NCBI GenBank assembly: GCA_032718475.1
Contig: JAUCBJ010008896.1
Location: 62,001 to 126,000, forward strand
Length of the DNA stretch: 64,000 bases
Origin: Nemertoderma westbladi
Lineage: Eukaryota; Animalia; Xenacoelomorpha
Reading direction: 5' to 3'
Shown: in pieces, positions 9,001-32,252 of the stretch
Layout of the letters: each line of letters starts with the position of its first letter
How positions within the stretch are numbered: position 1 is the stretch's first letter
The notes under the pieces: generated by a model
What the model was told of the DNA's origin: nothing
Databases searched by the model: none
The model's input: the letters and a program-made list of their open reading frames with translations, nothing else
Translations under genes and position numbers: made by a program

Positions 9001-12000
9001 CAACTCCTCTCTGATCTCCCTACCCCCACTGCGTCCCAACTCCTCTCTGATCTCCCTACCCTCACTGCGTCCCAACTCCTCACCGACCTCCCTACCCTCA
9101 CTGCGTCCCAACTCCTCTCTGATCTCCCTACCCTCACTGCGTCCCAACTCCTCACCGACCTCCCTACCCCACTGCGTCCCAACTCCTCACTCTAATCTCC
9201 CTACCCTCACTGCATCCCAACTCCTCTCTGATCTCCCTACCCCCACTGCGTCCCAACTCCTCACCAACCTCCCTACCCTCACTGCATCCCAACTCCTCTC
9301 TGATCTCCCTACCCTCACTGCGTCCCAACTCCTCTCTGATCTCCCTACCCTCACTGCTTCCCAACTCCTCTCTGATCTCCCTACCCTCACTGCGTCCCAA
9401 CTCCTCACCGACCTCCCTACCCTCACTGCGTCCCAACTCCTCACCGACCTCCCTACCCCACTCCGTCCCAACTCCTCTCTGATCTCCCTACCCCCACTGC
9501 TTCCCAACTCCTCTCTGATCTCCCTACCCCCACTGCGTCCCAACTCCTCTCTGATCTCCCTACCCTCACTGCGTCCCAACTCCTCTCTGATCTCCCTACC
9601 CTCACTGCGTCCCAACTCCTCACCGACCTCCCTACCCTCACTGCGTCCCAACTCCTCTCTGATCTCCCTACCCTCACTGCGTCCCAACTCCTCACCGACC
9701 TCCCTACCCTCACTGCGTCCCAACTCCTCTCTGACTCCCTACCCTCACTGCTTCCCAACTCCTCACCGATCTCCCTACCCTCACTGCGTCCCAACTCCTC
9801 TCTGATCTCCCTACCCTCACTGCGTCCCAACTCCTCTCTGATCTCCCTACCCTCACTGCATCCCAACTCCTCTCTGATCTCCCTACCCTCACTGCGTCCC
9901 AACTCCTCACCGACCTCCCTACCCTCACTGCGTCCCAACTCCTCTCTGACATCCCTACCCTCACTGCTTCCCAACTCCTCTCTGATCTCCCTACCCTCAC
10001 TGCGTCCCAACTCCTCTCTGATCTCCCTACCCCCACTGCTTCCCAACTCCTCTCTGATCTCCCTACCCTCACTGCGTCCCAACTCCTCACCGACCTCCCT
10101 ACCCTCACTGCGTCCCAACTCCTCACCGACCTCCCTACCCTCACTGCGTCCCAACTCCTCTCTGACCTCCCTACCCTCACTGCTTCCCAACTCCTCTCTC
10201 AATCTCCCTACCCTCACTGCTTCCCAACTCCTCTCTGATCTCCCTACCCTCACTGCTTCCCAACTCCTCTCTGATCTCCCTACCCCCACTGCTTCCCAAC
10301 TCCTCTCTGATCTCCCTACCCTCACTGCGTCCCAACTCCTCACCGACCTCCCTACCCTCACTGCGTCCCAACTCCTCTCTGACCTCCCTACCCTCACTGC
10401 TTCCCAACTCCTCTCTCGATCTCCCTACCCCCACTGCTTCCCAACTCCTCTCTGATCTCCCTACCCCCACTGCTTCCCAACTCCTCTCTGATCTCCCTAC
10501 CCTCACTGCGTCCCAACTCCTCACCGACCTCCCTACCCTCACTGCTTCCCAACTCCTCTCTCTAATCTCCCTACCCTCACTGCGTCCCAACTCCTCTCTG
10601 ATCTCCCTACCCTCACTGCGTCCCAACTCCTCTACTGATCTCCCTACCCCCTCTGCGTCCCAACTCCTCTCAGATCTCCCTACCCTCACTGCTTCCCAAC
10701 TCCTCTCTGATCTCCCTACCCTCACTGCATCCCAACTCCTCTCTGATCTCCCTACCCCCACTGCGTCCCAACTCCTCTCTGACCTCCCTACCCTCACTGC
10801 TTCCCAACTCCTCTCTGATCTCCCTACCCTCACTGCTTCCCAACTCCTCTCTGATCTCCCTACCCCCACTGCGTCCCAACTCCTCTCTGATCTCCCTACC
10901 CTCACTGCGTCCCAACTCCTCACCGACCTCCCTACCCTCACTGCGTCCCAACTCCTCACCGACCTCCCTACCCTCACTGCGTCCCAACTCCTCTCTGACC
11001 TCCCTACCCTCACTGCTTCCCAACTCCTCTCTCTAATCTCCCTACCCTCACTGCGTCCCAACTCCTCACCGACCTCCCTATCATCACTGCGTCCCAACTC
11101 CTCACCGACCTCCCTACCCTCACTGCGTCCCAACTCCTCTCTGATCTCCCTACCCTCACTGCTTCCCAACTCCTCTCTGACCTCCCTACCCTCACTGCTT
11201 CCCAACTCCTCTCTGATCTCCCTACCCTCACTGCTTCCCAACTCCTCTCTGATCTCCCTACCCTCACTGCTTCCCAACTCCTCTCTGATCTCCCTACCCT
11301 CACTGCGTCCCAACTCCTCACCGACCTCCCTATCATCACTGCGTCCCAACTCCTCTCTGACATCCCTACCCTCACTGCTTCCCAACTCCTCTCTGATCTC
11401 CCTACCCTCACTGCTTCCCAACTCCTCTCTGATCTCCCTACCCCCACTGCTTCCCAACTCCTCTCTGATCTCCCTACCCTCACTGCGTCCCAACTCCTCA
11501 CCGACCTCCCTATCATCACTGCGTCCCAACTCCTCACCGACCTCCCTACCCTCACTGCTTCCCAACTCCTCTCTGATCTCCCTACCCCCACTGCTTCCCA
11601 ACTCCTCTCTGATCTCCCTACCCTCACTGCGTCCCAACTCCTCACCGACCTCCCTATCATCACTGCGTCCCAACTCCTCTCTGACATCCCTACCCTCACT
11701 GCTTCCCAACTCCTCTCTGATCTCCCTACCCTCACTGCTTCCCAACTCCTCTCTGATCTCCCTACCCCCACTGCTTCCCAACTCCTCTCTGATCTCCCTA
11801 CCCTCACTGCGTCCCAACTCCTCACCGACCTCCCTATCATCACTGCGTCCCAACCCCTCTCTGACATCCCTACCCTCACTGCTTCCCAACTCCTCTCTGA
11901 TCTCCCTACCCTCACTGCTTCCCAACTCCTCTCTGATCTCCCTACCCCCACTGCTTCCCAACTCCTCTCTGATCTCCCTACCCCCACTGCGTCCCAACTC

Positions 12001-14573
12001 CTCACCAACCTCCCTACCCTCACTGCGTCCCAACTCCTCTCTGATCTCCCTACCCCCACTGCTTCCCAACTCCTCACCGATCTCCCTACCCTCACTGCAT
12101 CCCAACTCCTCACCGACCTCCCTATCATCACTGCTTCCCAACTCCTCTCTGATCTCCCTACCCCCACTGCTTCCCAACTCCTCACCGATCTCCCTACCCT
12201 CACTGCATCCCAACTCCTCACCGATCTCCCTACCCTCACTACGTCCCAACACCTCACCGACCTCCCTACCCCCACTGCTTCCCAACTCCACTCTGACCTC
12301 CCTACCCCCACTGCTTCCCAACTCCTCACCGATCTCCCTACCCTCACTGCATCCCAACTCCTCACCGATCTCCCTACCCTCACTACGTCCCAACACCTCA
12401 CCGACCTCCCTACCCCCACTGCTTCCCAACTCCTCTCTGATCTCCCTACCCCCACTGCTTCCCAACTCCTCACCGATCTCCCTACCTTCACTGCATCCCA
12501 ACTCCTCACCGATCTCCCTACCCTCACTACGTCCCAACACCTCACCGACCTCCCTACCCTCACTACGTCCCAACTCCTCTATCTAATCTCCCTACCCTCA
12601 CTGCATCCCAACTCCTCACCGATCTCCCTACCCTCACTACGTCCCAACACCTCACCGACCTCCCTATCATCACTGCGTCCCAACTCCTCTCTGACATCCC
12701 TACCCTCACTGCTTCCCAACTCCTCTCTGATCTCCCTACCCTCACTGCGACCCAACTCCTCTCTGATCTCCCTACCCTCACTGCGTCCCAACTCCTCTCT
12801 GACATCCCTACCCTCACTGCGTCCCAACTCCTCTCTGATCTCCCTACCCCCACTGCTTCCCAACTCCTCACCGATCTCCCTACCCTCACTGCGTCCCAAC
12901 TCCTCTCTGATCTCCCTACCCTCACTACGTCCCAACTCCTCACCGACCTCCCTATCATCACTGCGTCCCAACTCCTCTCTGACATCCCTACCCTCACTGC
13001 TTCCCAACTCCTCTCTGACATCCCTACCCTCACTGCTTCCCAACTCCTCTCTGATCTCCCTACCCTCACTGCGTCCCAACTCCTCTCTGATCTCCCTACC
13101 CCCACTGCTTCCCAACTCCTCACCGATCTCCCTACCCTCACTGCGTCCCAACTCCTCTCTGATCTCCCTACCCTCACTGCGTCCCAACTCCTCTCTGATC
13201 TCCCTACCCCCACTGCTTCCCAACTCCTCACCGATCTCCCTACCCTCACTGCGTCCCAACTCCTCTCTGATCTCCCTACCCTCACTGCATCCCAACTCCT
13301 CACCGATCTCCCTACCCTCACTGCGTCCCAACTCCTCTCTGATCTCCCTACCCTCACTGCGTCCCAACTCCTCTCTGATCTCCCTACCCCCACTGCTTCC
13401 CAACTCCTCACCGATCTCCCTACCCTCACTGCGTCCCAACTCCTCTCTGATCTCCCTACCCTCACTGCATCCCAACTCCTCACCGACCTCCCTATCATCA
13501 CTGCGTCCCAACTCCTCTCTGACATCCCTACCCTCACTGCTTCCCAACTCCTCTCTGACATCCCTACCCTCACTGCTTCCCAACTCCTCTCTGATCTCCC
13601 TACCCTCACTGCGTCCCAACTCCTCTCTGATCTCCCTACCCCCACTGCTTCCCAACTCCTCACCGATCTCCCTACCCTCACTGCGTCCCAACTCCTCTCT
13701 GATCTCCCTACCCTCACTGCGTCCCAACTCCTCTCTGATCTCCCTACCCTCACTACGTCCCAACTCCTCACCGACCTCCCTATCATCACTGCGTCCCAAC
13801 TCCTCTCTGACATCCCTACCCTCACTGCTTCCCAACTCCTCTCTGATCTCCCTACCCCCACTGCTTCCCAACTCCTCACCGATCTCCCTACCCTCACTGC
13901 ATCCCAACTCCTCTCTGATCTCCCTACCCTCACTACGTCCCAACTCCTCACCGACCTCCCTATCATCACTGCGTCCCAACTCCTCTCTGACATCCCTACC
14001 CTCACTGCTTCCCAACTACTCACCGATCTCCCTACCCTCACTGCGTTCCAACTCCTCTCTGATCTCCCTACCCTCACTACGTCCCAACTCCTCACCGACC
14101 TCCCTATCATCACTGCGTCCCAACTCCTCTCTGACATCCCTACCCCCACTGCTTCCCAACTCCTCACCGATCTCCCTACCCTCACTGCATCCCAACTCCT
14201 CTCTGATCTCCCTACCCTCACTGCTTCCCAACTCCTCTCTGATCTCCCTACCCCCACTGCTTCCCAACTCCTCTCTGATCTCCCTACCCTCACTGCGTCC
14301 CAACTCCTCACCGACCTCCCTATCATCACTGCGTCCCAACTCCTCACCGACCTCCCTACCCTCACTGCGTCCCAACTCCTCTCTGACATCCCTACCCTCA
14401 CTGCTTCCCAACTCCTCACCGATCTCCCTACCCTCACTGCGTTCCAACTCCTCTCTGATCTCCCTACCCTCACTGCTTCCCAACTCCTCTCTGACCTCCC
14501 TACCCTCACTGCGTCCCAACTCCTCTCTGATCTCCCTACCCTCACTACATCCCAACTCATCTCTGATCTCCCA
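1..14573. repeat. 36-bp tandem repeat array (~400 units), consensus TCCCAACTCCTCTCTGATCTCCCTACCCTCACTGCG, open at the left window edge
   Basis: CCCAACTC recurs at 3, 39, 75... (period 36). The array ends at ...GATCTCCCA|ACAAAAAC. The + strand is strongly C/T-rich. All long - strand ORFs here are translations of the repeat. Confidence 0.99.
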
Positions 14574-14645
14574 ACAAAAACTTTTTTGTTTTCGTTTTTA
14601 TTATTATTATTAGTATATAATTTAATTTTTATTTCGAAGTGTTGA
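12582..14645 (+). CDS. Candidate repeat-protein reading frame (SQLL[S/T]DLPTLTA)n ending ...SQLISDLPTKTFLFSFLLLLLVYNLIFISKC-stop; last indel-free segment, no start codon seen
   Basis: Frame read by hand to TGA at 14643-14645. Common variants are synonymous (GCG/GCT/GCA Ala, GAT/GAC Asp) or conservative (S/T, L/I, D/N). Upstream the frame is broken by ~30 small indels. Confidence 0.35.
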   Translation, partial: SNLPTLTASQLLTDLPTLTTSQHLTDLPIITASQLLSDIPTLTASQLLSDLPTLTATQLLSDLPTLTASQLLSDIPTLTASQLLSDLPTPTASQLLTDLPTLTASQLLSDLPTLTTSQLLTDLPIITASQLLSDIPTLTASQLLSDIPTLTASQLLSDLPTLTASQLLSDLPTPTASQLLTDLPTLTASQLLSDLPTLTASQLLSDLPTPTASQLLTDLPTLTASQLLSDLPTLTASQLLTDLPTLTASQLLSDLPTLTASQLLSDLPTPTASQLLTDLPTLTASQLLSDLPTLTASQLLTDLPIITASQLLSDIPTLTASQLLSDIPTLTASQLLSDLPTLTASQLLSDLPTPTASQLLTDLPTLTASQLLSDLPTLTASQLLSDLPTLTTSQLLTDLPIITASQLLSDIPTLTASQLLSDLPTPTASQLLTDLPTLTASQLLSDLPTLTTSQLLTDLPIITASQLLSDIPTLTASQLLTDLPTLTAFQLLSDLPTLTTSQLLTDLPIITASQLLSDIPTPTASQLLTDLPTLTASQLLSDLPTLTASQLLSDLPTPTASQLLSDLPTLTASQLLTDLPIITASQLLTDLPTLTASQLLSDIPTLTASQLLTDLPTLTAFQLLSDLPTLTASQLLSDLPTLTASQLLSDLPTLTTSQLISDLPTKTFLFSFLLLLLVYNLIFISKC

Positions 14646-15212: not shown

Positions 15213-16166
15213 TTGACTTATTTTGCGCACATTTTTATACAGTAGCTTTAGTCCATTAATTTGTATATTATGTTCAGTTATATCAATTTGGTGCAATTTA
15301 GTAGTAATTTAGACAGCCGTACCACCAACCAATAGGAAGCAAAAACAAGGGAGGGGGGGGGGGGGTTGCATGCAACCTGTCAAGGCTTTTACGGGAGGCT
15401 AACCCCACATCAGCTGCAAAGGGAGTTTGTTTGTAACTCTTGTGAGTGCTATCGAGTGCCTTGGGATACCTGCCACGTAGCAGGAACACTCACGAATGTT
15501 TATATATATATATATATATTATCTGGTCTGAAGGTACAATCAATTAATTTAAGTGTAACTTTAATATATTTTTATCTTGGTTTGGTGACTGTTAGGATAA
15601 TAATGTCATTTAACTGTGTGTATAAATATTTATCTTATCTGTATTATAATAATATATCTACTAATATTTCAGAAGTTATTAATTTAAGTGTATAGCCTCG
15701 GCACTATAAATTGCTTCAAGGGAATAAGGTAATATTTACGTGTAAACTGTTCCGTTATGTTGTGTTGTCGGTGGGTGAATGTACGTGTGACTTATTTATA
15801 TTACAGGTAGGACACTATGTTGGACCTAGTGCGTGGTAAGCGCACAGTTCACTCGTACTGCACACATCATAGTATCGATAGAGTTACAAGTTGGGGAATA
15901 ATATTGCAGTACTATGGACGCACACACTCGCACTAAATCTATTACAGATAGGAGGGCATAGTCAGCACTAACGGTATGGAAAGCAAGTTGGTGTGATCTC
16001 TGGTCTTGTATATTCATCAACAAAGTAAAGCAATAATAATAACTATAATACGAATATAATGTAATGATAAGAATTAATGCAAACAGTATGTACAGTATGT
16101 ACAATATGTACAGTAAGGTGAAATTTCATAGGTCCCTGTTAGTTACATAACTCGTAACAGGCTTAA

Positions 16167-18271
16167 TAGTGGGGTCGCTTAAGGCTGAAATATAGCAAAA
16201 TCGATAATTGCCGGACAAAAGCATGAAAATGTGACTATATATGTAAAAAAATGTGTAGATTAATCTGAGCCTGTGTACCAAAAAAATTGACTACTTCCCT
16301 AGCAACAGGGTGACTTTTTCATAGCAACGGGATACTTTTGGTCGTATCTGTTATTGAAACTCGCCATATATAGAAAAATTGCGATTATATTACTGGGTTG
16401 GTTTAAAAATAGAAGTCGAGTACACGTTCCCATAGCAACAAGGTGACCTTTCCCTAGCAACCGTTGTATATTTAATGTAATTATGATTGAAACGTGGGAT
16501 AAACAACATGTCTAGCAATAGAAGATGGTTATTAGTGACATCGGCGCTGATACACGTTTCCTTAGCAACAAGGTGACCTTTCCCTAGCAACTGCCTGCAA
16601 TTCTGATTGAAACTTGGGATCATGTTGGGATAATCAAACTGTATAGCAATATAGGGCCCATGTGAAGAATACCAGACTTTCTGCTGTTATATGTCACTTT
16701 GCAATTACTCCCTTCTGAAGTATACCAGGTTTTCACGAAGACCACAGGTTACAGAAGGGCTGAATCTAACCAAAACAATAAACGAATTAGTATATGTAAA
16801 GGTTATAAGACAGAAATAAGCGCTATAAAAACATTTTAAATATTTTAATGTGAATAATATATCCCAAAAGTTAGGTGAGGACAAATCAAAGGGTTTATTG
16901 ATGTTCCATGCCCTTAGTGGCTGTGACACCGTGTCCCACTTCAGAAATATTGGCAAAATAACTGCTTGGAAAACTTGGTTGGCCATGCCAGAAATCACAT
17001 CAACTTTCAAGACAGTATACGATCAGCCATTTAATCCCTTCCCAAATGGAATCGAAAGTGTAGAATTCAAAGAGTTGGAAAAATTGGTCATACGTATGTA
17101 TGTCAAAAATCAAACAGAACGAGTATAAATAATACAAGACGGGATCTATTCACCAAACGCAACTGCGCGATTGATCGCTTGCCACCAACTCAACACGCCC
17201 TTTACCAACATGTGATGCGGGCTACATATCAAGCCAGCGTTTGGGCAGTCTGCACACAGGACAAACCGATACTCCCTTCACCAGCAGATTTCGGTTGGGT
17301 ATTTAATACTCAATGGGATCCCGTCAGGAGTTCACTTCCAGACGCTGCAACGATGTGCTACAAAGTCATTAAATGTGCATGCAAAAAGCGCAATTGCACA
17401 AACTGCAAGTGTGGGAAGGCTGTGTTTAAATGCACAGAATAAGCACTTGCACTTGCTCTTGTTATTGATAACATATGATTCGTATAATTAAAAGAATTGG
17501 TATAACTATAATACTAAATAATTTAAATTTACAGCCTTATGGCTGTGTATTTGATGTATAAACACATTATCCTCATAAAGCCAAAAGTGCAATATTTCTT
17601 AAATATGGATATCACCTTTTGTTTCTATAGAAACGTGCATCACAGCTCCAATATAACTACTAACCATCTTCTATTGCTATAAATGCTGTTTATCTCCAGT
17701 TTCAATATTAATTACACTAAATTTCAGGCAGTTCCTAGGGAAAGGTCACCTTGTTGCTATGGAAACGTGTATCAGCGCCAATGTTATTACTAACAATCTT
17801 CTATTGCTAGACAGGTTGATTATCCCAAGTTTCAATCATGATTTCATTGAATATACAGCGGTTGCTAGGGAAAGGTTACCCTGTTACTAAGGAAACTTGT
17901 ATCAGCGCCTATGTCATTACTAACCATCTTCTATTGCTAGTCAGATTGATTATCCCAAGTTTCAATCATAATTCCATTAAATATAGAGCGGTTGCTAGGT
18001 AAAGGTCTCCTTGTTGCTATGGAAACGTGTACAGACTTATATTATAAACTAACCCAGTTATATAATCGTAATTTTTGTATATGGTGAGTTTCAATAACAG
18101 AAATGACCAATTTTACCCGGTTGCTATGTAAAAGTCACTCTGTTGCTAGGGAAGTAGTCAATTTTTTTGGTACACAGGCTCATATTAATCTACACATTTT
18201 TTTACATATATAGTCACATTTTCATGCTTTTGTCCGGCAATTAACGATTTTCACCTTAAGCGACCCCACTA
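16167..18271 (+). mobile_element. Academ (AcademX-type) DNA transposon, internally deleted derivative
   Basis: Termini TAGTGGGGTCGCTTAAGG...CCTTAAGCGACCCCACTA, TIRs of several hundred bp with internal CCTAGCAAC subrepeats, 3-bp TSD TAA (16164-66 / 18272-74). The flanks rejoin to match uninterrupted repeat X copy 3. Confidence 0.85.
16850..17442 (+). pseudogene. Academ transposase C-terminal remnant (XPG-like nuclease region plus Cys-rich finger), frameshift near 17125
   Basis: Motifs FHALSGCDT, GKITAWK, LPPTQHALYQHVMRATYQASVW, PSPADFGW, KCACKKRNCTNCKC. Confidence 0.8.
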
Positions 18272-18734
18272 TAAGATGGTATACGGTTATGACTGAAAAT
18301 AGCAGGAGGAACATCGACTATATATGCACTATAAGAATAGAACAGCCAATAGGGCGCAAGAAAATCGTAAAGTATAGCAACCAATAGGAGTTTTAGAGTT
18401 ACGGCAACCGATGCTGGGCAACAGACAAACAATCTCAACAGTGATATACAGCGCGGATTGGAGACGAAATATTATGCACTCCGAAATGGAATAGTTCTCT
18501 AATAAGATTTCGACATGCAGTTAGCCTGTGCAGCAAAACCGTTCCCTAAAATTACGTACAAGTTCAACAATCGTTCTATGAATAACACAAAATGGAGTTT
18601 TTTTGGAAATTTGCATGGAAAGGGGCATATACAGTCTTTCAACGGTTAAAGGCAACGTCCATATTAGATACTTTCTACATACAATTAAATGCGATAAACA
18701 ATCTAATGGGATGTCCTTCCAGGAACTAATAAAC

Positions 18735-18740
18735 TTTATT
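18735..18740 (-). promoter_or_regulatory. Candidate polyadenylation signal AATAAA
   Basis: TTTATT on +, about 20 nt downstream of the stop of the 18761-19384 ORF. Confidence 0.4.
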
Positions 18741-18760
18741 AAATCGTAGGATGTCGCGTG

Positions 18761-19384
18761 CTAGGGATGTATCTCGCGAAGGAAGCGTTGGACAAAGCGA
18801 GTGTTTGTGCAGGAAGCTACACGGTTGAGGAGCTCGTAACTCGGTAACCAAGCATGCCGAACATCTGTTGCGCAGGTGAAGGGGGCAACTGTGTATACCC
18901 CGAGGTGAGCTTTCGTTGCAGCGTATCGGGATGTGGTGATCGCATTGAGATCTGCGCATCCTTCCCACGATCGAATATATCGGGTGACGCTTGTTTCATC
19001 TTCTGTCTCGATGTCGGGGCCAAAGGGGCAGTTTGGACTACTATGTCCCTTGAGTTGGCAATGCTCGCACTGGGTGGCAAAGACCAGACAGGAGAAGAAG
19101 ATATGGTCGCCATGAACAGGGCAGTAGGGACAATAAAGTTCGATACGATTATCGGTGAGGCGCTCACAAAGAACTCCAGGTTGGGTGGGAGCCTTGTGAC
19201 CACAATATGCACAATGGACATGTTTGCAAAATAACGCATAGCGGAAACCTCGAACTGTGAGCCGCTCGGTTCCATGATACCAATCAATCAAGGCGGACTC
19301 ATTGTCAGGGGTGAGCATGACAGGGGCGGCTACTGTGGTCGCTTCTAGGTGGATTGGTTCCTCCGCTTGGTCGGGGGCATCCAT
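18761..19384 (-). CDS. Zinc-knuckle protein (CCHC) with an unknown C-terminal domain; probable 3' part of the retrotransposon cargo gene
   Basis: CEHCQLKGHSSPNC is C-x2-C-x4-H-x4-C (19028-19069), preceded by CPYCPVHGDHIFFSC and CAYC. GC is higher than in the flanks. Homologous to ORF 63497-63997. Confidence 0.7.
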   Translation of the reverse strand: MDAPDQAEEPIHLEATTVAAPVMLTPDNESALIDWYHGTERLTVRGFRYALFCKHVHCAYCGHKAPTQPGVLCERLTDNRIELYCPYCPVHGDHIFFSCLVFATQCEHCQLKGHSSPNCPFGPDIETEDETSVTRYIRSWEGCADLNAITTSRYAATKAHLGVYTVAPFTCATDVRHAWLPSYELLNRVASCTNTRFVQRFLREIHP

Positions 19385-20611
19385 AACATCAGTCTGTATT
19401 TGCCCAACCGTGAAAATGGTTTAATAATGGGTCTCTCGATCACCGATTGATGGAGATTGGAAGTACATACGTCTTGGAATATAGCGAAGCCACCGCTGGC
19501 TAGCTCATCTGCTGTGGAGCGACATAGCTCTCGCTGAGACAGTGATTTCACACGGAACTGACTGTTAATGTTGGTGAAGGGGGTTAAGAAACGCCGAAAG
19601 CATTCGAAGTTCAGGAATTTACCAAGTTCATCGAGTTTGGTGAGTTGGGTTCCCAACAACAACGGGTGCACTCTCAGCGTGCGGCTACAGACATCTGCAA
19701 GCCATCTTGATAATGCTTGGTTCTCGAATATGAGGTATATCACTAGCGAGGGGCGCAAGGGGACGATCATAAAGTTATATACAGCGGCAGAGGCGGTGAG
19801 CAGTCCTTGAAAGTAATAAGGCGAATATGAATCACCATAAACTTTGGAATACGTCTCGTGATCGGTTTCCTTAAAGTTCCAACCATACTCTTGAAACGCA
19901 ATGTGGCCAGAGGATGTATGGTCAACTCTGCTATACGTATCATTGGCATTGTGTCGATACATAACCCGGAAGAAGCTGCGGGATTGCGTCCAAGGAAAGA
20001 TGACTTGGGTGTCAATAAAGGGATATGGTATGTCATGGACTATAGGAAAATCATCGGTCAATTCCCGATATATGGCTGAACCGAGTTTGTAAACTGATGC
20101 GTCCAGGAGAATGTCCAGTACGGGTTGTGGCAATAATGCTGTGTCTATTCCCATGGCTGGGTGTCAGTTCGTGTCATTAACATAAGCCTCTGCTTTAAGA
20201 AATTGTTTATGTCTCGCACGATAGTTGATAGGCTGTCAAGGCTGGGAAAACGCTGCTGGTGCCGTGACAAGTACGCGTGAAAATGTACGTGGCTCCATTG
20301 AGGCCGCGGATATGAATCAACCGAGTTGAACCGAGCTCATGATCCGCCACTGAGCCTTCGTTATCATAGATCATAATGCCGTAACTGTGAATAGCATTAA
20401 CTGTATGTAACCATTCAGCATTAGCCACTTCGGTAGTCAGTTCTATCGGTTTCCATAACATATCCAATGAACTGGGTTCTCCACACGCTATTCTTATAAA
20501 TTCATAACTAGGCATTTTTCGTATATTCGCGTTTGATTCGCCAACATATCTCAAATCATCTTCAATGAGGGTTACATCCAAGTTCAAGTGGACGAGGCGA
20601 TGGTAATGCAT
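19345..20611 (-). pseudogene. DEDDy 3'-5' exonuclease-like domain (WRN/RNase D/EXD type), split over ORFs 20207-20611 and 19345-20154
   Basis: ExoI-like GIMIYDNEG...RLIHIRGLNGATYIF; LPQPVLDILLDASVYKLGSAIYRE (cf. LP..L..LL.D.SI.KVG.....D); FIDTQ. Joining needs a frameshift and an in-frame TGA at 20164-66. ExoII reads E and ExoIII YxxxD is not recognisable. Confidence 0.6.
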
Positions 20612-21789
20612 AAATGTTTCTTATACTCCAGTTATATTCCTCCGAGAGTCATTGTCGCTGTGTATCGAGATTATCTACTGAGTAGTCATTAGAAGTATCC
20701 GTAATTGTTATCAACAATGTGTAAATATATCAATAATTCAACAGAAGTAAACCAATGAGACAATATAATTGTTAAAATAACTTGAGTTTGTATAGGGCCG
20801 GTAATGCCCTCTATCCCTAGCCCGGAATGGACCCAAGCCACCCCTGGTCACGTTAGCGCCACTATGTCTACTCCCTAGCCAACAGATGTGGAAGAATGGG
20901 TGGAAGCCATGCGGCTAACGCGCTCGTGACCGGTCTCTCCAAGGGCTGTCCGTCGGGGGTTGTATTGACTGTTATAGTGCGACTGAAATTAGTCTGCAAT
21001 AGGGTTTCGGTTCGCTACAGTAAACACACAGAGAATAGCTGTTATTTTATTAGTACTATCACACAAACTAACACACCCAATGCCACAGCACGCACAAATG
21101 TCCGTTACGAAACCTACTATTTCCTGAATGTTAATATTTTAAATTTCCATGGATACTTATTAAATAAATTTAAAGGTATTAATTTTAGGAAAAATATATG
21201 ATAAAACTCTAGAAATTTAATAAAAGGGTTGAGCGAGTGACACACCAGCGTCCCAATGTTTTGAATTTGCAATTAATTTATCAATGATCAACATTCGGTA
21301 AATATAGTGGTAGAATAGGGTCTTGCTCATTCACACAGATCTGGGTCTACTGTGATATTATTACGTCTTTGTTGGTTGTATTATTTAATTTATTTACTTG
21401 GTTGTGGTGTTTGTCTGTATAGTATTGGTATTTATACTATTGTCGTATTAATGTCGTGATTAAAGGGTTGGTGGTATTAAACCATTAATGAATAATATAA
21501 ATATATAATTACGTGATCCAGTGACTTAACCTAGGTTTACTCATCCCTTGGGAGAGAGCCACTAAGTGGACCGCGACCGTTCCCATAATGCTTATTATTA
21601 CAGTGACTTATATTTATATGATATTGTATTAACAATATCAATCTAGGTTGGTTCTTGAAGTTTCAAGCCAACTAATAATTGACATCTCTTACTGTACTCT
21701 GGCAATTGACAAGAAGCGGGAGTAGTAATTAAGACTCTGCATTCAAGTGTTATTGGGCCGTCATAATACAGCAAGACCAAGGTTTTTTA

Positions 21790-22330
21790 TTGTCATGCGT
21801 CATGTTTAATACTGACTTATCATGACTAGTGTAATTTATTATCATTTTATTTGTTACTCCCTATATACTCGGGTTATACAAAAAGTGGTGGGCCGTCTCC
21901 AGAATTTATCCAGAGTTTGGTTTAACTGAAATAACGGATATGGATTCCGCATTCAATTGTATTATCACTGTCATCATACAATTTTTAAGGGTTTTGGTTG
22001 GCTGCGCATCATGTTTAATAATGACTTATCGAAACATGTTGTCAAGAGTTGGGCTCAGGTTTCATCATGCGTCGTGTATAACGACTTATCATGAAACATC
22101 CCACAATTCTAGAATCAGAATTCTAGAACATCTAGAATGTTCTAGAACGAAGCTCAAGTTTCAAGCACTGTGTATAAAACGATTTATCATGAAACATCCC
22201 ATAGTCCTATTGGTATTTGGGGACGGAAGCAATGTAAGTATAAATTACGTTAGCCTGTCAAGCTGAATATATGGCATATTTTTAAAAACGTATGGGGTCA
22301 GTGGTTAACGACGCAACATAACCCGTTCCC
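21790..22330 (-). promoter_or_regulatory. Putative PPT and start of the 3' LTR (U3-like region with repeated GATA motifs, HSE-like cluster, CCAAT, TATA-like box)
   Basis: The - strand reads GGGAACGGGTTA|TGTTGCGTCG (TG at 22318) just after the pol end. Four GA(C/T)TTATC repeats, TTCTAGAA repeats at 22105-22148, TATATAGGG near 21860. Confidence 0.45.
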
Positions 22331-22378
22331 ATGCTTGAGTGTGATATGCTGCGCACTGAAATGTTCCAAGGTAGTTAG

Positions 22379-24659
22379 TTAACTAGTACAATAAAAATAT
22401 ATCAAGTCTGTTAGCTTGACTTCTTGGTTGCCGTAGTTGCCAGATTCTTCGCTTGCCATTTCTAGCAGGCAGAGGCGGCCTATAGGATAGTTGAGTCTCT
22501 GGGGAACGAAGTTAAGTTTGCCTTTTTCCCTCAGCACTACAAAATCCACTGATCTTATCAGGCCATCCGCGCTGATGCATTTTTCTACTATCATTCTCCT
22601 TCCACATACGTGGAACGAGGACTCGAGCCCGCAATATAACTGGGCTGCTGAATCCTAGGGGGTCGAAATAAGCGCTGAGAATGCCTAGGCAAATACATTT
22701 GGTTCGGGTACCGCCCTTTCTCAACTTCAATTTAAATACCATAATGTCACTTTCTGTAAGCCAACGAAGACTTTTAATGGCTTTGTTTCCGGTAGGCCGT
22801 CCTTACTCAAGTCCAGTTCAGTATTGCCACACTCAGTGGAGGGTATGGCCTTTAAAAACTCACTGGAATTGCTTGTGAATTTCGTTAGGCAAAATCCTCC
22901 AAGTTTCAGGCAGTTTACTGTCCCTTGAGCAATGTCAATGGCTTCTGTTACGATCGGGGCTGATTTTGTGTTGTTGTCTATGTAAATATCCGTTTGATAT
23001 TATTTATGACTGGAGGTGGAAATTCATCCCTATGGTCATCAGCCATCCGATGCAGTCGTAAGTCGGGCGGTGTATCTAATAGCTTAGTCATCAGAGACAC
23101 AATGTTGGGTTCACTGTACCTAATAAGGAAATGTCTTGGTTTGAGGATAGGGGTGCATCACTATCACTGTCGGTTTGGTCAGGGGTAGTCAAGACGTCCG
23201 CTTCTGTCTTTATGGTCTCATTGCAAAGGTGGGTCACTAAATTGCAAGTGTCGGTGTCTGTATTTGTTGGTCCCATTCGCTCTAATAGAGTTTTCCGGGA
23301 AGGGCCGGTACAGAACCATCCCACTCTTGTCTGACAGGCGTAGGCTGACATTGGATCTGGATGTCTGGGTCGTTTCTCCAGAATTTCTAAGGCCTCGGGT
23401 ACATTTTGGCCTATCAACATCTGTACACCTGGGTAGTCTATTCCCTGGTGAACAAGGATTTGGCTAACTCTCCATCTATGAAGGTCCTCGTACTTCCTGT
23501 GTCCATTAAAGCATTTAATATAACGCTACTACTTCCCGTATGGAGCCAGACTTGGAGCACCAGAAAATCTCTGACTCTGGCATCCTGATATGACTGGGTG
23601 CTGGGATTGTTCTCCATTTTGAAACAATCTTCTGATACGGGTTCCTCATACGTAAAGGCCTCATACACGCTGACATGGTTGCAGCATTCATCGTTGTCTG
23701 TAAAGTCTCCAGGGTAGAATTCATCTGGTCCTTCTTCGGATGAGTCTGTCTCACAATCGGTGGAGTGTACACATTGGTCCATTCCTCCCTTCGGGACCCG
23801 GTCTACATGTAGCAAGGGGTGATGGGAGCCCTAACGCACTGGACACGTTTTTGTGTTTATTAGTCTGCACTTACGTCTCAAATGTCCCAGTCTAAGACAC
23901 AAGAAGCATGCCGACAAGTCCAAAGCTGTCTGTCGCCTCTCTATTAAAGTCTTTTTTAGGAAGGTGTCACATTTCACGAGTGGATGTGTGTCTATTTTAC
24001 AAAGAGGGCGCATACCGCGCGCGTGTAGAGCGTGTATCGTGTAGAGTATCCCAAACAGTATTTTTTATGCCGTCCACATGGCCCACATATTTCGTGGCCA
24101 TCTGTTTAGGGGGTCCTACCAGACAACTAATCAAATATCTAAGCTTCTCACGGTCGCTCAATGGCGAGTCTAGAATGCTATCCTTACAGAACTCCACAAA
24201 GGGTAACCATTTTAGCTCATCACCGTCGAACTTTAGAATTTGACCTGCAGAGACGCACTGTCGGGCCTCATTTCTAGCAATATGTCGGGTAAGGTCGGCT
24301 TGAGCTGCTGAAGAATTTAGTAAAATGTCGGTTAGATATGAGCTTTGGTCGTTCTGATGTACTGTATTCTCGGCATGAATACCACTCATATTGGAGGCAC
24401 GTTTTAAAAATTTTAGACCCTGTGACGCTGCTTGTGAGTCGACCTTCTTATTTGTTAGGGTGATATGATCTTGCATTAAGGCCACTTGTTGCTCTAAGTC
24501 ATCGTTTCTTTGTAATAGAGAATCATTTCTTTGTAATAAAAAATAATTTCTTTGTAATAGAGAATCATTTCTTTGTAATAAAGAATAATTTATTTGTAAT
24601 AAAGAATCAATGATTTCTCGAGAGTCGTCGTTGTTCGTGTTGGGTGAGGGGGCAAACAT
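22379..24659 (-). mobile_element. BEL/Pao LTR retrotransposon gag-pol remnant with internal deletions
   Basis: Gag KFDGDELKWLPF..SDREKLRYLISCL; knuckles CFLCLRLGHLRRKC..HHPLLH; protease ALMDTGSTRTFI; LIGQNV..TRVGW; RT end IYIDN..GGFCLTKFTSNS; Pao A17 region YFDPLGFSSP; integrase tail DGLIRSV..PIGRLCLLE. Most of RT, RNase H and integrase is missing. Confidence 0.9.
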
Positions 24660-25194
24660 AATGGGGATGTGTTCATTACTAGTAGTGATGGTGAGCTCAC
24701 TCTAGTTTGTACAACACTAACTATGGGTGCGATGGATCTACATTTAAGTTGTCTACAATCCCTCTGGTAAATATCAAGCAAAATAAAAACATGTGCAAAT
24801 AATACAACGCTAGTTCTACACATAATTGAAGTAGTTTACTTACACGGAAACTGTTGGACGCAGGAAGTATAGTAAAGTGATCAGTTTCACTACAGCCTAC
24901 TGTAACCAACCATTTGATGTTATGATGGTAATATAATTGATTGTACTGGGGGGGGGGGGGGGGGGGGGGAGGGGGAGGAGAACACTGTCTTGGGAGCAGT
25001 GTTGGAAAATGAAATTTCACTGTCAAGGCTTTTACGGGAGCTGGGAGGCTAATCCCACATCAGCTGCATAGGGAGTTTGTTTGTAACTCTTGTGAGTGCT
25101 ATCGAGTGCCTTTGGATACCTGCCACGTAGCAGGAACACTCACGAATGTTTATGTAATATATATATTATCTAATATATATATTATCAAATATAA

Positions 25195-26175
25195 TTTGAA
25201 CTGGGTGTAAGCAATATTGGAATATACCGTAATAATGTGTTTTGGTTTAGAATCTATTGTTATTTTCGGAACGTTATTTTCAGAACGGTGTATAAACAAT
25301 ATCGTACATACAGTACAGTGCATACGGGAATTCATATTTACTGAACTGAGTTACATACGGGTATTCATATTTTACTGAACTGGGTGTAAGCAATATTGGA
25401 ATATACCGTAATAATGTGTTTTGGTTTAGAATCTATTGTTATTTTCGGAACGTTATTTTCAGAACGGTGTATAAACAATATCGTACATATACAGTGCATA
25501 CGGGAATTCATATTTACTGAACTGAGTTACATACGGGTATTCATATTTTACTGAACTGGGTGTAAGCAATATTAGAATATACCGTAATAATGTGTTTTGG
25601 TTTAGAATCTATTGTTATTTTCGGAACGTTATTTTCAGAACGGTGTATAAACAATATCGTACATACAGTGCATACGGGAATTCATATTTACTGAACTGAG
25701 TTACATACGGGTATTCATATTTTACTGAACTGGGTGTAAGCAATATTGGAATATACCGTAATAATGTGTTTTGGTTTAGAATCTATTGTTATTTTCGGAA
25801 CGTTATTTTCAGAACGGTGTATAAACAATATCGTACATACAGTGCATACGGGAATTCATATTTACTGAACTGAGTTACATACGGGTATTCATATTTTACT
25901 GAACTGGGTGTAAGCAATATTAGAATATACCGTAATAATGTGTTTTGGTTTAGAATCTATTGTTATTTTCAGAACGGTGTATAAACAATATCGTACATAC
26001 AGTACATAAGGAAAGTCATTGTTTACTGAACTGGGTGCAATCTATATTGGAACATACCGTAATTTGTAATTTATATAATTAGGTTTAATTTTATTGTTAT
26101 TTTCAGAACGTACGGTGTGTATTCAATATCGTAACATACAGTACATACAAGGGAATTCATATTTACGGAACTGGG
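25195..26175. repeat. ~175-bp tandem repeat, ~5.5 copies, degenerating to the right
   Basis: GAACTGGGTG recurs at ~25198, 25377, 25553, 25727, 25901, 26028 and 26168. Confidence 0.95.
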
Positions 26176-26673
26176 TGCTTCACACGTACTTTGTGGCCTG
26201 CCCCCACGCCCACATCTACTTTTTGAAGTTGGTACATATGTACAGCACTACGGTAGCTGGTCTAGGTACCGGTACATCGTGCAGCAGTCAAACAGCTGTA
26301 GATTAGGCGTTAGGCCGTGTAGACTTCTGGAGAGGGTCTGGTAGTCTAGGTATGGCAGTACAGTAGGGTGCATGTCAGTCAGTCACGGAACAAGTGGATT
26401 ATATACTATATAGGGTATATGCCCATCAAATTCGACATTTTTGATTATTATTGTTAATTGGCTTTGGTGCTAAACTATTATATAATACAGGGAAAATTGT
26501 TTGACAGAGTAGTAATTTATGTAATTTTAGCCTGATAGGCCCAACACATTTCTGCATTTTTTGTTGTTTTTTTTGGTATTTCTGTCTTTTCACTGGAGAA
26601 TTTATATTTGGGTTGAGTGAGTAGGTGTAGGCTGTTTTTAGTTATCTGTTTTTAGTTATTTGTTTATTATTAA

Positions 26674-26711
26674 CCCTGATGAAGGATATGAAATATATTC
26701 GAAAATTTGGG
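26674..26711 (+). ncRNA. Minimal type I hammerhead ribozyme motif (Penelope-associated)
   Basis: CC-CTGATGA-A-GGATATG-AAA-TATATTC-GAAA-ATTT-GGG: CUGANGA and GAAA cores, stem II with GU pairs, CCC/GGG stem I. Confidence 0.6.
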
Positions 26712-28159
26712 AAATTAACATCATTTTTTATCGAGAAGTTTATCCTCAGTGGCGAACTCATTTCAATTATATATTATCTAATATATATATCTGCTCTGAA
26801 GGTACAATCAATTAATGTAAGTGTATAGCCTCGGCACTATAAACTGCTTCAAGGGAATAAGGTAATATTTACGTGTAAACTGTTCCGTTATGTTGTGTTG
26901 TCGGTGGGTGAATGTACGTGTGACTTATTTATATTACAGGTAGGACACTATGTTGGACCTAGTGCGTGGTAAGCGCACAGTTCACTCGTACTGCACACAT
27001 CATAGTATCGATAGAGTTAAATGAACCGAATCTATTACAGACAGGGCACAGTCAGCACTAACCGTATGGGAAGCAATTTGGTGTGATCTCTGGTCTTGTA
27101 TATTCATCAACAAAGTAAAGCAATAATAACTATAATACGAATGGGTATGATAAGAATTAATGCGCACATCAAGTTAGTTGTGATATGTACAGCAAAAGAC
27201 GAAATATTATGCACTCAGAAGTGGAATAGTTCTCTGATAAAAATATAAGTTTTCGACATGCAGTTAGCGTGTGCAGCAAAACAACCTACCATTTACCAGT
27301 AAGGAATCACAGACTGTCCTGTAGTAGTTTAGTCCTGTATGTACTTCTGTACTTTACACCTGCATGCAGTTTAACTGAATTGAGTTGATTAAGGGCTGTT
27401 GCACGAAATATACTCGGTTATTTCATTTTAAATTATATTTTTGGTCACTTAGAAAAAGGTCCTTCTAAACGCACTAACTCATTGTCCATCGCCACTACAT
27501 CGCCCCTCCCAGGTTGTCTCCTGAATCCCAACATCTGCTCGGGTCTTCACTGTCCTAGAATTCCTGAGGTGATTCCATCAAGTTGGGTTGGAACTTACAA
27601 GCCACTGACTCACAACCTCATGATCAAAGGTTGTGTGTGCACTCTAATGTTAGAGAGACAATATTCACGGATTACACAATAATTGTATGGCCAGTAAGTC
27701 AGGTTGTTGTCATCAAAATTCATTCGTATAAAATTTATCGAATTATTATCAAATTCACAGGCTTCATTTTGAAAAGAAATTGGTAATATTTTTCATAAAA
27801 TTCAATATAAATTAAATTAAACCATGTTAGCGATGTAGTAGTCCATCATATCATAGTTTGAAATATAATAATTTGTATGGGAGTGCAGCATAACTTGACA
27901 ATCATCATTGAAGAAGTGGTACCCACCCATATGCTAATCAGACGTGAAGATTCTGTTATATTTAGTACTTACTTATTAGGATAGAGTGCCAGCTGACCTC
28001 CTTAAGAGGTCAGTTATTATCAGTTAAAGAGGCTTGCCTCTAAACTGCCTAATATACAGTATTGTATTTAAGTATGGCAATAAATAATAAAAAAAATCAT
28101 GTTTACTTTGAAATACGCAAGGGCTCACGATAGTGATACTTATCAATATTATTTTGTAG

Positions 28160-29092
28160 AACAATGACAAGGCGGAAAAAGCAGCTAAAGAATCGACAAT
28201 ACTCATGGATGGGGAGAACATAGTAGATTATCTGCAAGAAAATAAGTTTATAGAAAAAGTAGTGGATCGGGATGCTCCGATGCGAGGTGAAATTCCCTGC
28301 AACCAATTTAATGACAATGATAAATCCGGTCTTTATAAAAATGAATTGTATTCGCTAGGTGGGTATGTTTATTGCGATCTGGATTTGGATGGAGGACCTT
28401 GGTTGGTAATCCAACGACGCGTCGACGAATCTGTCGATTTCTTTCGCAACTGGGCAAACTACACCACAGGATTTGGAAATGTGAGTAATAACTTCTTCCT
28501 TGGATTGGACGCCATTCATGAACTTTCTAAAGGCGGTGTTCCAATGCGAATTGATTTGTGGTCATATACAAGCTCTGCTCCTGCTGATGAAATGAAAAGT
28601 CAAGTTTTGAAATACTATTGTGGTGGAGCATATAAAAATATACATGACTTTGAATTACCATTTTGCTCCAAGGAACACAAACACGTGTATGCTTACTATA
28701 ACAATTTCAGTGTAGGTTCAGCAGCTACTAATTACACATTAAATGCTTCGGGGTATTCTGGCAATGCAGGGGATATGATTGCAGGTGAGACGGATCTCAA
28801 TCCTGATCACAAACCCTTGAAGGATTCCGATAGGAGATTTTATCCCAACAGTCAACCGTTCAGTTCATTTGATCACAACAGTGGCGTCATTAGAAAACTA
28901 CCTCAACCCATTTTTTTTGATGACAAAGAGACTAACTGTGGCCGCCAATACCAATCGGGTTGGTGGTTTGCTCCTGAAAAATGTGTCTGGGGTTCGGACT
29001 TAAATGAAATAATGATAAGAGTATATTGGAAATCATATGCAGGATTTTATCCACTGGACAAGGTAGAAATCAAGATCAAAGTAGGAAATTAT
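28160..29092 (+). CDS. Fibrinogen-related domain (FReD; ficolin/tachylectin-like) exon 1
   Basis: VYCDL..GGPWLVIQRRVDESVDFFRNWANYTTGFG..FFLGLDAIHEL..YSGNAGD..GWWF. Phase-0 acceptor TTTTGTAG ends at 28159; donor GTAAGT at 29093. Confidence 0.9.
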
Positions 29093-29749
29093 GTAAGTTG
29101 GTATTTTATATACAATAATTAATTTTCTAATTATTATTAAAATTTGCTTATAATTTCCCATGCTGAGGTTGAGCTCTACCGCTTCTACCTTAGTCTATAT
29201 GCTCCTCTCTTGCTTCATATGAACTGCTCCCTGGGATTGAGAGAACTGCTTAAATATCTTGACACAAAAGGGAAAAGATTGTCTACATTAATTTAACTAT
29301 TAAGGTTAGAAAAATTGATTCTAAGAGCAAAATTTGTTCGAGAATACAAAACTTTAAATGGTTTCTCAATATCTTTGTTAGGTATTGAGTCTTTATGCTA
29401 TTGCGGTTTAATTTACATGTTTTTTTTTAACTAAAAATGAAGTTTTTGCACTAAAAATCTATATCCTCCTATATTGTCTTTATCTATGCTTCGCAATTTT
29501 ATTTCTTTAACGGATTTACGTTTGTGTCTACAGAATATTTTCAAAGCGGATTTTCAAAATATTTATCTTCTTATTCTCTCAAACCTGTGCAATCTCAGGC
29601 CAGTAACTCCCTAGTGCTAAACAAAACCAACAACAACAGTACAAGGCAGAGTCATAAATCGCCGCCACAACAATAATAACCTACCTAACAAATTACGTGG
29701 AAATCAGTAAAACTTACATTTACATACATTAAGTCACAAAACCATAGCC

Positions 29750-29860: not shown

Positions 29861-30144
29861 ATATTAGTGGAGCTATGCACGACCAACACACTTGATAATC
29901 AACACCATCATCTTGGAAGGAAGAAAATAGTTGGGTCACAGCTGATAACAACGACGCTATGAGCATAACAATACTCACATGCACGAACCACATCCCATAT
30001 AAGTCCAACACCCAACCACATCAGTCATTTGTGATATTATACCTGATATTTAAAAAATAAGTTTTTTAATTTTGAGACTTTTTATTAGAAATAATAATTA
30101 CACAATTCTGTGTTGTTGCGCTGATAAAAGCTGTTCTATTGCAG

Positions 30145-31565: not shown

Positions 31566-32234
31566 GTGACAACAGTCAGCCACAGTCAAAAAAATTGTTG
31601 ACCAATATCAAAAATGGCCATAAACAATGTGAATAATACTGTAGTAGATCACAGTGCTAAAAGTAATTCTGCCAAGTTTCTGCTCTGCATATCACTGGCA
31701 AGTCATAGGAAAACAGTCAAACGTCTGGTGACAACACACAAAATGTCCGGACAACACTCTAAATCATGAATTCAGTATTCGGCAATACAGGTAGAGGTAG
31801 ATTAATACTTTAATATGCCAGGCAAGACACCAGTCTGCCTGTCATTTACTTTTATACTGAATGTAACTCGCTGGTTTGCAACCTTAGCGTACCGCTGTTG
31901 CTGGTACGGGTAGCCTATCACTATTTCAACCTTGGCTTATAAATTAATACATATAGATAATGTTTTAATATGTAATATTTTTGTTTGCTATAATGCTATT
32001 TGTTATTTATCCGTTGTTAGATTACCCATTAGGTGATTCCCGAGAGGGGCCCTGGGTAATTTTCTCCATTTTTAATTCATAATTTTAAATTAAATTGTGT
32101 TAATAATAATAATAAATATGCGGAGCTGAAACTTGGCAGAATTAATTTTAGGACTGCGATCTACTGTTATTCACATTGTTTATGGCCATTTTTGATAATG
32201 GTCAACAATTTTTTGACTGTGGCTGACTTGTCAC
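31566..32234. mobile_element. MITE with ~110-bp imperfect TIRs
   Basis: GTGACAACAGTCAGCCACAGTCAAAAA...TGCCAAGTTTC (31566-31680) is the reverse complement of GAAACTTGGCAG...GACTGTGGCTGACTTGTCAC (32128-32234). Confidence 0.8.
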
Positions 32235-32252
32235 AAATTCCACCTATCCTCT

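What the first reader, a model, noticed from the sequence alone, without database searches (positions are those of the whole stretch)
18735..22330. BEL/Pao retrotransposon carrying a 3'-5' exonuclease plus zinc-knuckle cargo gene, possibly inside its LTR
Seen: downstream of the Pao pol remnant, on the same strand, three abutting GC-richer ORFs read as one decayed gene of about 600 codons. It has DEDDy exonuclease-like motifs (IYDNEG; LPQPVLDILLDASVYKLG; FIDTQ), then CCHC knuckles, then an unknown domain, with AATAAA 20 nt after the stop. A PPT-like GGGAACGGGTTA|TGTT junction lies upstream of the gene at 22318, so the cargo may sit within a long LTR of at least 3.6 kb. Established: DEDDy domains occur in host small-RNA factors (Mut-7/Nibbler, EXD1, Egalitarian), and extra DEDDy ORFs are known from some invertebrate retroelements. 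Inference: an exonuclease-knuckle fusion could process element RNA or cDNA or counter piRNA silencing. ExoII reads E and ExoIII is not recognisable, so it may be a catalytically dead RNA binder.
Basis: partly seen in the sequence, partly recalled or inferred. Interest (0 to 1): 0.82.

Follow-up and report, generated by a model that had tools for sequence, protein, structure and literature searches.

The report
Exonuclease-like cargo gene in BEL/Pao retrotransposon
A decayed jumping gene of the BEL/Pao type carries, between its polymerase gene and its right-hand terminal repeat, a real but broken extra gene with zinc knuckles that likely encodes an RNA-trimming (DEDDy-type) enzyme, a kind of cargo that my searches found described only in other retrotransposon groups.

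Summary
The extra gene is real; the 'inside the LTR' idea is wrong. The true LTR pair is 27281-25021 and 18538-15378 (minus strand, 87% alike, GGTTG target duplication). The ~616-codon gene (20620-18761) is therefore an internal ORF3 between pol and the 3' LTR. The family is multicopy. Where other copies vary, changes are mostly synonymous (15 of 19 shown sites, p=6e-5), whereas near-fixed differences from this copy are mostly non-synonymous (16 of 20): a selected gene, now decayed here. DEDDy identity is likely but unproven. Only the ExoII block aligns to DEDDy profiles (pairwise E 2e-4 to 7e-3); ExoI and ExoIII are not significant, no homolog was found, and folding failed. One canonical and one near-canonical CCHC knuckle are confirmed. 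The site after the 5' LTR is not TGG-like and pairs with the element's own LTR, with compensating changes in a sister element, which suggests self-priming. DEDDy ORF3s are published for rotifer Ty3/gypsy elements (PMC5408684). This scan earlier noted exonuclease cargo in other LTR elements and self-primed BEL/Pao, both on other DNA. Verdict: new variant of a known kind.

The parts
27282..27286 (-). 5' target-site duplication GGTTG
   Evidence: same 5 bases follow the 3' LTR
25021..27281 (-). 5' LTR (TTTTGCTG...CCTTGACA), with an internal deletion and a ~1.6-kb insert (about 25183-26767) holding a 175-bp tandem array
   Evidence: 582 of 666 aligned bases identical to the 3' LTR
25009..25020 (-). 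primer-binding-site position; 12 bases perfectly complementary to the element's own LTR; no TGG start
   Evidence: 2 of 3000 resampled LTRs reach 12
23780..24701 (-). gag remnant: DUF1759-like region and a Cys-His knuckle remnant
   Evidence: DUF1759 E 2.3e-4, below curated cut-off; translation; knuckle pattern recalled
23091..23779 (-). aspartic protease remnant (DTGS)
   Evidence: Asp_protease_2 E 0.026, weak
22727..22999 (-). C-terminal remnant of RT; most of RT is missing from this copy
   Evidence: motif likeness recalled, no Pfam hit
22593..22802 (-). start of Pao 'Peptidase_A17' (RNase H region); the rest of RNase H and integrase are missing
   Evidence: E 1.3e-5, 25.7 bits against cut-off 22.3
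22379..22592 (-). pol C-terminus (ADGLIRSV...YPIGRLCLLE) and stop
   Evidence: likeness to the BEL/Pao integrase tail is recalled, not from a call
20700..22378 (-).
   Evidence: the 8-mer count is not significant window-wide (6 of 100 shuffles reach 4)
20224..20620 (-). ORF3 piece A: N-terminal region and candidate ExoI (D codon at 20365, E at 20359); true start unresolved near 20700
   Evidence: ExoI alignment not significant
19400..20220 (-). ORF3 piece B: ExoII block (K 20088, E 20064, D 20013), candidate ExoIII D at 19833, then an unknown region; one in-frame stop near 20165
18761..19420 (-). ORF3 piece C: zinc knuckles (19213-19028) and an unknown C-terminal region; TAG stop
18735..18740 (-). 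AATAAA, 20 nt after the ORF3 stop, upstream of the 3' LTR
18539..18547 (-). polypurine-tract-like AGGGAACGG abutting the 3' LTR
15378..18538 (-). 3' LTR, interrupted by a nested DNA transposon (16167-18271; inverted ends TAG...CTA, TAA duplication)
16118..16129 (-). LTR segment complementary to the primer-binding-site position (candidate self-primer)
   Evidence: homologous alignment column in the sister element at 45947-45956
15373..15377 (-). 3' target-site duplication GGTTG

Best explanation
The region is the internal third gene of a multicopy BEL/Pao-type LTR retrotransposon, broken in this copy but kept under purifying selection in the family, and it likely encodes a DEDDy-type 3'-5' exonuclease joined to zinc knuckles that would bind and trim single-stranded RNA 3' ends during the element's own replication. 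Shown: position between pol and the 3' LTR, multicopy status, synonymous bias, the knuckles, AATAAA. Inferred: the DEDDy fold (from the ExoII block and the order of motifs); acidic residues D-E-E-D as in rotifer retroelement enzymes; RNA binding by the knuckles (by analogy with trypanosome RNase D); expression from a separate or spliced mRNA ending at the internal AATAAA; and the substrate (element RNA or its primer).
For: LTR pair and GGTTG duplication enclose gag, pol remnants and the gene on one strand. 1530, 1867 and 1306 contigs of three runs (2 samples) lie on 18300-25100 and cover all 30 bins, most under 95% alike. A diverged contig bridges the pol stop and the spacer (X3 record 21, 22160-22609), and one 2122-base contig covers the whole gene (X5 record 26). 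Of 39 shown differences, 15 of 19 at sites variable among copies are synonymous third positions (p=6e-5; 2 of 19 and 3 of 19 synonymous in the other frames), against 4 of 20 at near-fixed sites, which is the neutral rate of 21-33%. Three DEDDy profiles all pick the same block. RNase D HMM: pairwise E 0.002-0.003, 1 of 1000 shuffles as high. Mixed profile: E 5e-4 to 9e-4, 1 of 2000 shuffles, top of 600 window chunks. WRN-like profile: E 0.004-0.007, 7 of 2000 shuffles, also top of 600. hhalign with the mixed profile: 49% probability, E 1.7e-4, 45 columns, above all 60 shuffles. Precedent: DEDDy ORF3 with DEED in rotifer LTR elements (PMC5408684, passages); RNase D with a C-terminal zinc finger in T. 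brucei (PMC7797062, abstract and section headings).
Against: No Pfam, NCBIfam, PHROGs or PDB exonuclease hit for any piece. A pairwise E of 1e-3 to 1e-4 is not significant against about 25,000 families, and the block was first picked by eye. The ExoI alignment is no better than shuffles (52 of 100; 75 of 100). The ExoIII candidate was not aligned, and it has K where the Tyr would be. Global hhalign put the N-terminal half out of register. About 40 extra residues separate the ExoI strands from ExoII. No single contig joins ORF3 to pol in another copy, and the X5 contig runs on unlike the window for 229 bases past 18711. No intact copy was seen; the X5 copy is itself broken. The selection test used 39 of 82 listed differences (40 shown, 1 beside the break dropped, 42 hidden), and the 0.8 cut-off was set after seeing the rows.
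Confidence: 0.5

Rival explanations
1. The protein is DEDDy-derived but catalytically dead, and works as an RNA-binding decoy or adaptor (like EXD1 or Egalitarian; recalled) that shields element RNA from small-RNA silencing or carries it to assembly sites.
For: ExoIII is unrecognisable and the candidate lacks the Tyr; a synonymous difference at that K codon in other copies suggests that K is a family trait. Knuckles supply RNA binding. PMC5408684 (passage) raises inactive DEDD derivatives in piRNA biology.
Against: Acidic residues sit at the candidate ExoI, ExoII and ExoIII positions, and E at ExoII occurs in rotifer enzymes described as having intact invariant residues. No data on silencing here.
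Confidence: 0.2
2. The gene is a real, selected accessory ORF3 with zinc knuckles, but the exonuclease likeness is a chance 45-residue resemblance and the protein is an orphan of another fold.
For: Only one block aligns. No homolog among 1.84 billion representatives. No family hit. ExoI and ExoIII fail their shuffle tests.
Against: The block holds three spaced DEDDy features in register (LP..h..hL.D, K.G, hD.Q 17 residues after the ExoII acid) and is picked by three profiles. A D-x-E followed by two predicted strands lies upstream in the expected order (low confidence).
Confidence: 0.24
3. The gene belongs to a separate nested element or a captured host gene that rides passively inside this copy.
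For: No contig links ORF3 to pol, and one related contig diverges downstream of the gene. Nested insertions are common here.
Against: No direct or inverted terminal repeats bracket the gene. It lies on the same strand as pol and ends 220 bases before the PPT. Contig cover is continuous from gag to the 3' LTR, and a diverged copy bridges pol and spacer. No introns are evident in the three pieces.
Confidence: 0.05
4. The gene lies inside a long LTR that starts at 22318.
For: A GGGAACGG 8-mer and a TGTT lie about 50-60 bases after the pol stop.
Against: The region is single-copy in the window, while a different sequence forms the LTR pair, with a target duplication and four identical 18-base LTR ends.
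Confidence: 0.01

Closest known systems
DEDDy-exonuclease ORF3 of bdelloid rotifer LTR retrotransposons Juno and Vesta, and of Athena/Terminon elements (PMC5408684, passages read; PMC6431247, passages read)
   Same: Non-env third ORF behind pol in an LTR element; DEDDy-like, with E at the third acidic position (DEED).
   Different: Those are described as retrovirus-like rotifer clades (Ty3/gypsy type; recalled), and this is BEL/Pao. Here the exonuclease-like part is fused to about 130 unknown residues, CCHC knuckles and a further domain (about 616 codons). Their identity came from strong HHpred hits; here it is weak. Sequence kinship could not be tested.
Trypanosoma brucei RNase D (TbRND; PMC7797062, abstract and headings; PDB 7c42)
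   Same: DEDDy exonuclease with a C-terminal zinc finger that, by the section heading, enhances RNA binding and cleavage.
   Different: A cellular mitochondrial enzyme of about 350 aa; no sequence link shown.
WRN/EXD2/Mut-7-type and RNase D exonucleases (PF01612)
   Same: LP..h..hL.D..h.K.G block followed by hD.Q.
   Different: ExoI not significant, ExoIII YxxxD not found, long insert before ExoII.
Dada DNA transposons with a DEDDy domain (PMC3706591, passage)
   Same: Transposon-borne DEDDy exonuclease.
   Different: There the domain is inserted in a DDE transposase and keeps DEDD.
Self-priming Tf1/Tj1 LTR retrotransposons (PMC4600332, passages)
   Same: The primer-binding-site position is complementary to a segment of the element's own LTR.
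   Different: Those are Ty3/gypsy-type elements (recalled); the transcription start is unknown here, and LTR ends are TT...CA.

Membership tests
BEL/Pao LTR retrotransposon | Direct LTR pair with 4-6 bp target duplication | tested here: met
   5-bp GGTTG; the ends read TT...CA rather than the usual TG...CA, in both this and the sister element
BEL/Pao LTR retrotransposon | Pao-specific Peptidase_A17 domain | tested here: met
   25.7 bits against cut-off 22.3, profile positions 1-44 of 162
BEL/Pao LTR retrotransposon | DUF1759 gag domain with Cys-His knuckles | tested here: inconclusive
   E 2.3e-4, under the curated cut-off; knuckle remnant by eye
BEL/Pao LTR retrotransposon | pol order PR-RT-RH-IN | tested here: met
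   remnants in this order; RT and IN-tail motifs recalled, not from a call
BEL/Pao LTR retrotransposon | RT phylogeny within Belpaoviridae | not testable with these tools
   RT core missing from this copy; no relatives retrieved
DEDDy 3'-5' exonuclease (PF01612) | ExoI D-x-E on the first strand | tested here: inconclusive
   D-N-E is present, and two of three N-terminal profiles place it on D-T-E, but scores equal shuffles
DEDDy 3'-5' exonuclease (PF01612) | ExoII block and following hD.Q | tested here: met
   pairwise level only; the ExoII residue is E if ungapped, a nearby D in the gapped hhalign
DEDDy 3'-5' exonuclease (PF01612) | ExoIII Y-x3-D | tested here: inconclusive
   not aligned; candidate K-V-Y-G-D lacks the Tyr at the expected spacing
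DEDDy 3'-5' exonuclease (PF01612) | DnaQ/RNase H-like fold | tested here: inconclusive
   single-sequence models at pLDDT 33 and 32; searches uninformative
DEDDy 3'-5' exonuclease (PF01612) | Metal-dependent 3'-5' activity | not testable with these tools
   needs an assay
Retroelement DEDDy ORF3 pool (Juno/Vesta/Athena) | Sequence grouping with the rotifer ORFs | not testable with these tools
   the only supplement listed holds primers; one supplement store gave no answer, and figure alignments are not held
Tf1-type self-priming elements | Primer-binding site complementary to the element's own LTR | tested here: met
   12 and 10 bases in two elements, same alignment column, cross-pairs only 7; 2 of 3000 and 22 of 3000
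Tf1-type self-priming elements | Complementary segment lies at the transcript's 5' end and is cut to give the primer | not testable with these tools
   no RNA holder listed

The most novel reading that the evidence does not exclude
This is a self-priming BEL/Pao lineage that carries its own primer-maturation enzyme. The LTR segment that pairs at the primer site is followed by bases that cannot pair, so the primer needs an exact 3' end; the knuckle-bearing DEDDy ORF3 trims the cut RNA back to the duplex. That would be an element-encoded replacement for the host tRNA-primer pathway, not described in any paper that my searches returned.
Probability: 0.1. Interest if true: 0.75.

Novelty: new variant of a known kind. 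Interest (0 to 1): 0.4.

Why it matters
The role of exonuclease cargo in retrotransposons has been open since its description in rotifers. A selected, knuckle-fused version in a second LTR superfamily would show repeated recruitment of the same enzyme class. Its co-occurrence with an apparent self-primer offers a concrete, testable substrate. As it stands the copy is decayed and the enzyme identity rests on one block, so the advance is modest.

Tried and rejected
No whole genome is held for the window. Homolog searches found nothing: piece B against 1.84 billion representatives, 0 hits; piece C among longer proteins, 0 of 598 candidates; gag among longer proteins, 0 of 397; piece B in metagenome and viral contigs, 0 of 166 and 0 of 7 stretches; RT remnant in viral contigs, 0 of 10; the LTR-end 18-mer gave 7 metagenome matches, 0 related to the element, and 0 viral matches; ESM Atlas gave no usable hit twice. 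Since even gag finds nothing, these blanks mostly show that the host group is poorly represented. Family scans gave only weak chance-level rows for the ORF3 pieces, as did PDB sequence searches. AlphaFold single-sequence models were unusable, and their fold searches listed no exonuclease. No RNA holder was listed, so expression and splicing of 20700-20790 were not tested. Contig depth was not used as copy number. Repeated GGGAACGG as extra PPTs is not significant window-wide. The bacterial promoter scan is irrelevant to this organism. Literature: searches returned no paper reporting a DEDDy ORF3 or self-priming in BEL/Pao; most were seen as listings only, the library lacks most subscription papers, and Repbase was not available. 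PMC13524379 (term search, passages) has no mention of exonuclease; PMC6338049 and PMC5718144 (passages) cite only the rotifer case and related work.
Full report
Observation. On the minus strand three open frames lie at 20620-20207, 20163-19345 and 19420-18761, together about 616 codons, with stops upstream of 20620 and one near 20165. The quoted motifs are present. Piece C has one canonical CCHC knuckle (38 of 20000 shuffles) and two matches to a looser pattern (3 of 20000). AATAAA follows the stop by 20 bases. Upstream is a Pao pol remnant: Peptidase_A17 passes its cut-off, while DUF1759 and an aspartic protease score weakly. Translation shows gag knuckle, protease, RT tail, RNase H start and integrase tail in that order (the RT and integrase-tail likeness is recalled). 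Most of RT, RNase H and integrase is missing from this copy.

The element's limits. Both start TTTTGCTG and end CCTTGACA, GGTTG flanks the pair on both sides, and 582 of 666 aligned bases match. The 18-base LTR end occurs 4 times in the window against 0 in 100 shuffles; the other two belong to a sister element at 45631-48698 with its own 5-base duplication. The 3' LTR is preceded by AGGGAACGG and interrupted by a DNA transposon. The stretch from 22318 to 18740 has no second copy. The gene is therefore internal, in the ORF3 position.

Is the gene real and part of the family? No genome is held, but public DNA contigs of the organism show a multicopy family: 1530, 1867 and 1306 contigs in three runs (two samples) cover all 30 bins from gag to the 3' LTR, most under 95% alike; a fourth run gave 17. 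One diverged contig bridges the pol stop and the spacer, and one covers the whole gene, but none joins the gene to pol, and the long one runs on unlike the window past 18711. On 19740-20460 (two runs), the break between the first two frames maps near 20223 and is not shared by three contigs. I classed 39 of the 40 displayed differences (42 more were hidden; one beside the break was dropped). At sites where copies vary, 15 of 19 are synonymous third positions (p=6e-5; the other frames give 2 and 3 synonymous of 19). At sites where nearly all other copies differ from the window, 4 of 20 are synonymous, the neutral rate (Fisher p=4e-4). The 0.8 cut-off was chosen after seeing the rows; pooled, 19 of 39 are synonymous against 21-33% expected. 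I read this as a gene under purifying selection in the family and decaying in this copy. No intact copy was seen.

Is it a DEDDy exonuclease? No library names it, no homolog was found, and single-sequence folds were unusable. I therefore built reference profiles from bacterial RNase D proteins and WRN-like exonucleases (one member's best PDB hits are WRN and EXD2). All three profiles pick the same block, from LPQPV to FIDTQ or its first half: pairwise E 0.002-0.003 with 1 of 1000 shuffles as high; E 5e-4 to 9e-4, 1 of 2000 shuffles and top of 600 window chunks for the mixed profile; E 0.004-0.007 and 7 of 2000 for the WRN-like one; hhalign 49%, E 1.7e-4. In the ungapped alignment the ExoII position is E. 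ExoI is placed on D-N-E by two of three N-terminal profiles but scores like shuffles, and ExoIII is not aligned; my candidate, K-V-Y-G-D, has the Asp but no Tyr four residues before it. This is support for a targeted guess, not a database-level hit. I put the DEDDy origin at about 0.7.

Primer site. After the 5' LTR there is no TGG. Instead 12 bases pair perfectly with a segment about 305 bases into the element's own 3' LTR (the 5' LTR has lost that part). In the sister element 10 different bases pair with the homologous column, and cross-pairs reach only 7 (2 of 3000 and 22 of 3000 resampled LTRs). This resembles Tf1/Tj1 self-priming (PMC4600332, passages). The transcript start is unknown.

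How it likely works. Shown: an internal, selected third gene with knuckles and its own AATAAA. Inferred: a DEDDy domain with D-E-E-D residues; knuckles that hold single-stranded RNA, as the zinc finger of trypanosome RNase D does (PMC7797062, abstract and headings); and trimming of RNA 3' ends in the element's cycle (0.5). Rivals: a dead RNA-binding decoy (0.2), an orphan fold with a chance block (0.24), a nested passenger (0.05), cargo inside an LTR (0.01). The boldest reading, that the enzyme matures the self-primer, gets 0.1; other self-primed BEL/Pao elements in the scan's notes are not said to carry such a gene.

Comparison and novelty. DEDDy ORF3s with DEED are published for rotifer Juno and Vesta LTR elements and for Athena elements (PMC5408684, passages; PMC6431247 and PMC5718144, passages), and a DEDDy domain occurs in Dada transposases (PMC3706591, passage). 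Paper searches returned no report of such cargo, or of self-priming, in BEL/Pao; coverage is limited. The scan's unchecked notes list exonuclease cargo in other LTR elements and self-primed BEL/Pao in other genomes; I did not test them, and they are not support. New here are the BEL/Pao host, the knuckle fusion and the co-occurrence with the self-pairing primer site. Verdict: new variant of a known kind, interest 0.4.

Noticed in passing
window 25009-25020 and 16118-16129; 46576-46585 and 45947-45956: In two related elements (LTRs 76-78% alike) the bases after the 5' LTR pair perfectly with the same site about 305-320 bases into the element's own LTR (12 and 10 bp), with compensating changes: candidate tRNA-independent self-priming. 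Seen before the scan's notes were read; the scan has noted it in other genomes.
   Followed up: yes
window 45631-48698 (+): Sister element with an uninterrupted 945-bp 5' LTR, GCCAC target duplication, short leader, about 1.6 kb of unrelated insert and only the last ~22 bases of a 3' LTR; no gag, pol or ORF3 detected.
   Followed up: partly
window 57059-57230 (+): A third, truncated LTR start of the same family.
   Followed up: no
LTR starts 27281, 18538, 45631, 57059: All four LTR starts read TTTTGCTG, so the ends are TT...CA instead of TG...CA. A 4-bp duplication with a GACAG end fits the letters equally well.
   Followed up: partly
window 16167-18271: DNA transposon nested in the 3' LTR: long inverted ends beginning TAG, TAA duplication, broken transposase fragment with a GCDT...F..IGK..W motif and a Cys-rich end. 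It resembles Academ (recalled, not tested).
   Followed up: partly
window 22379-23830: pol lacks most of RT and nearly all of RNase H and integrase, yet keeps its tail. Whether the family amplified as a non-autonomous form that kept ORF3 could not be settled from short contigs.
   Followed up: partly
window 28160-29122 and 30076-30879 (+): Two fibrinogen C-terminal domain frames (E 8.5e-34 and 9.7e-23) next to the element.
   Followed up: no
window 49354-55849 (-): Two LINE-like RT-bearing elements, one apparently nested in or adjacent to the other (by eye).
   Followed up: no
window 1-14600; 32122-34300; 37070-38855; 44569-45148: Strongly skewed satellite array and several minisatellite or inverted-repeat blocks.
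   Followed up: no
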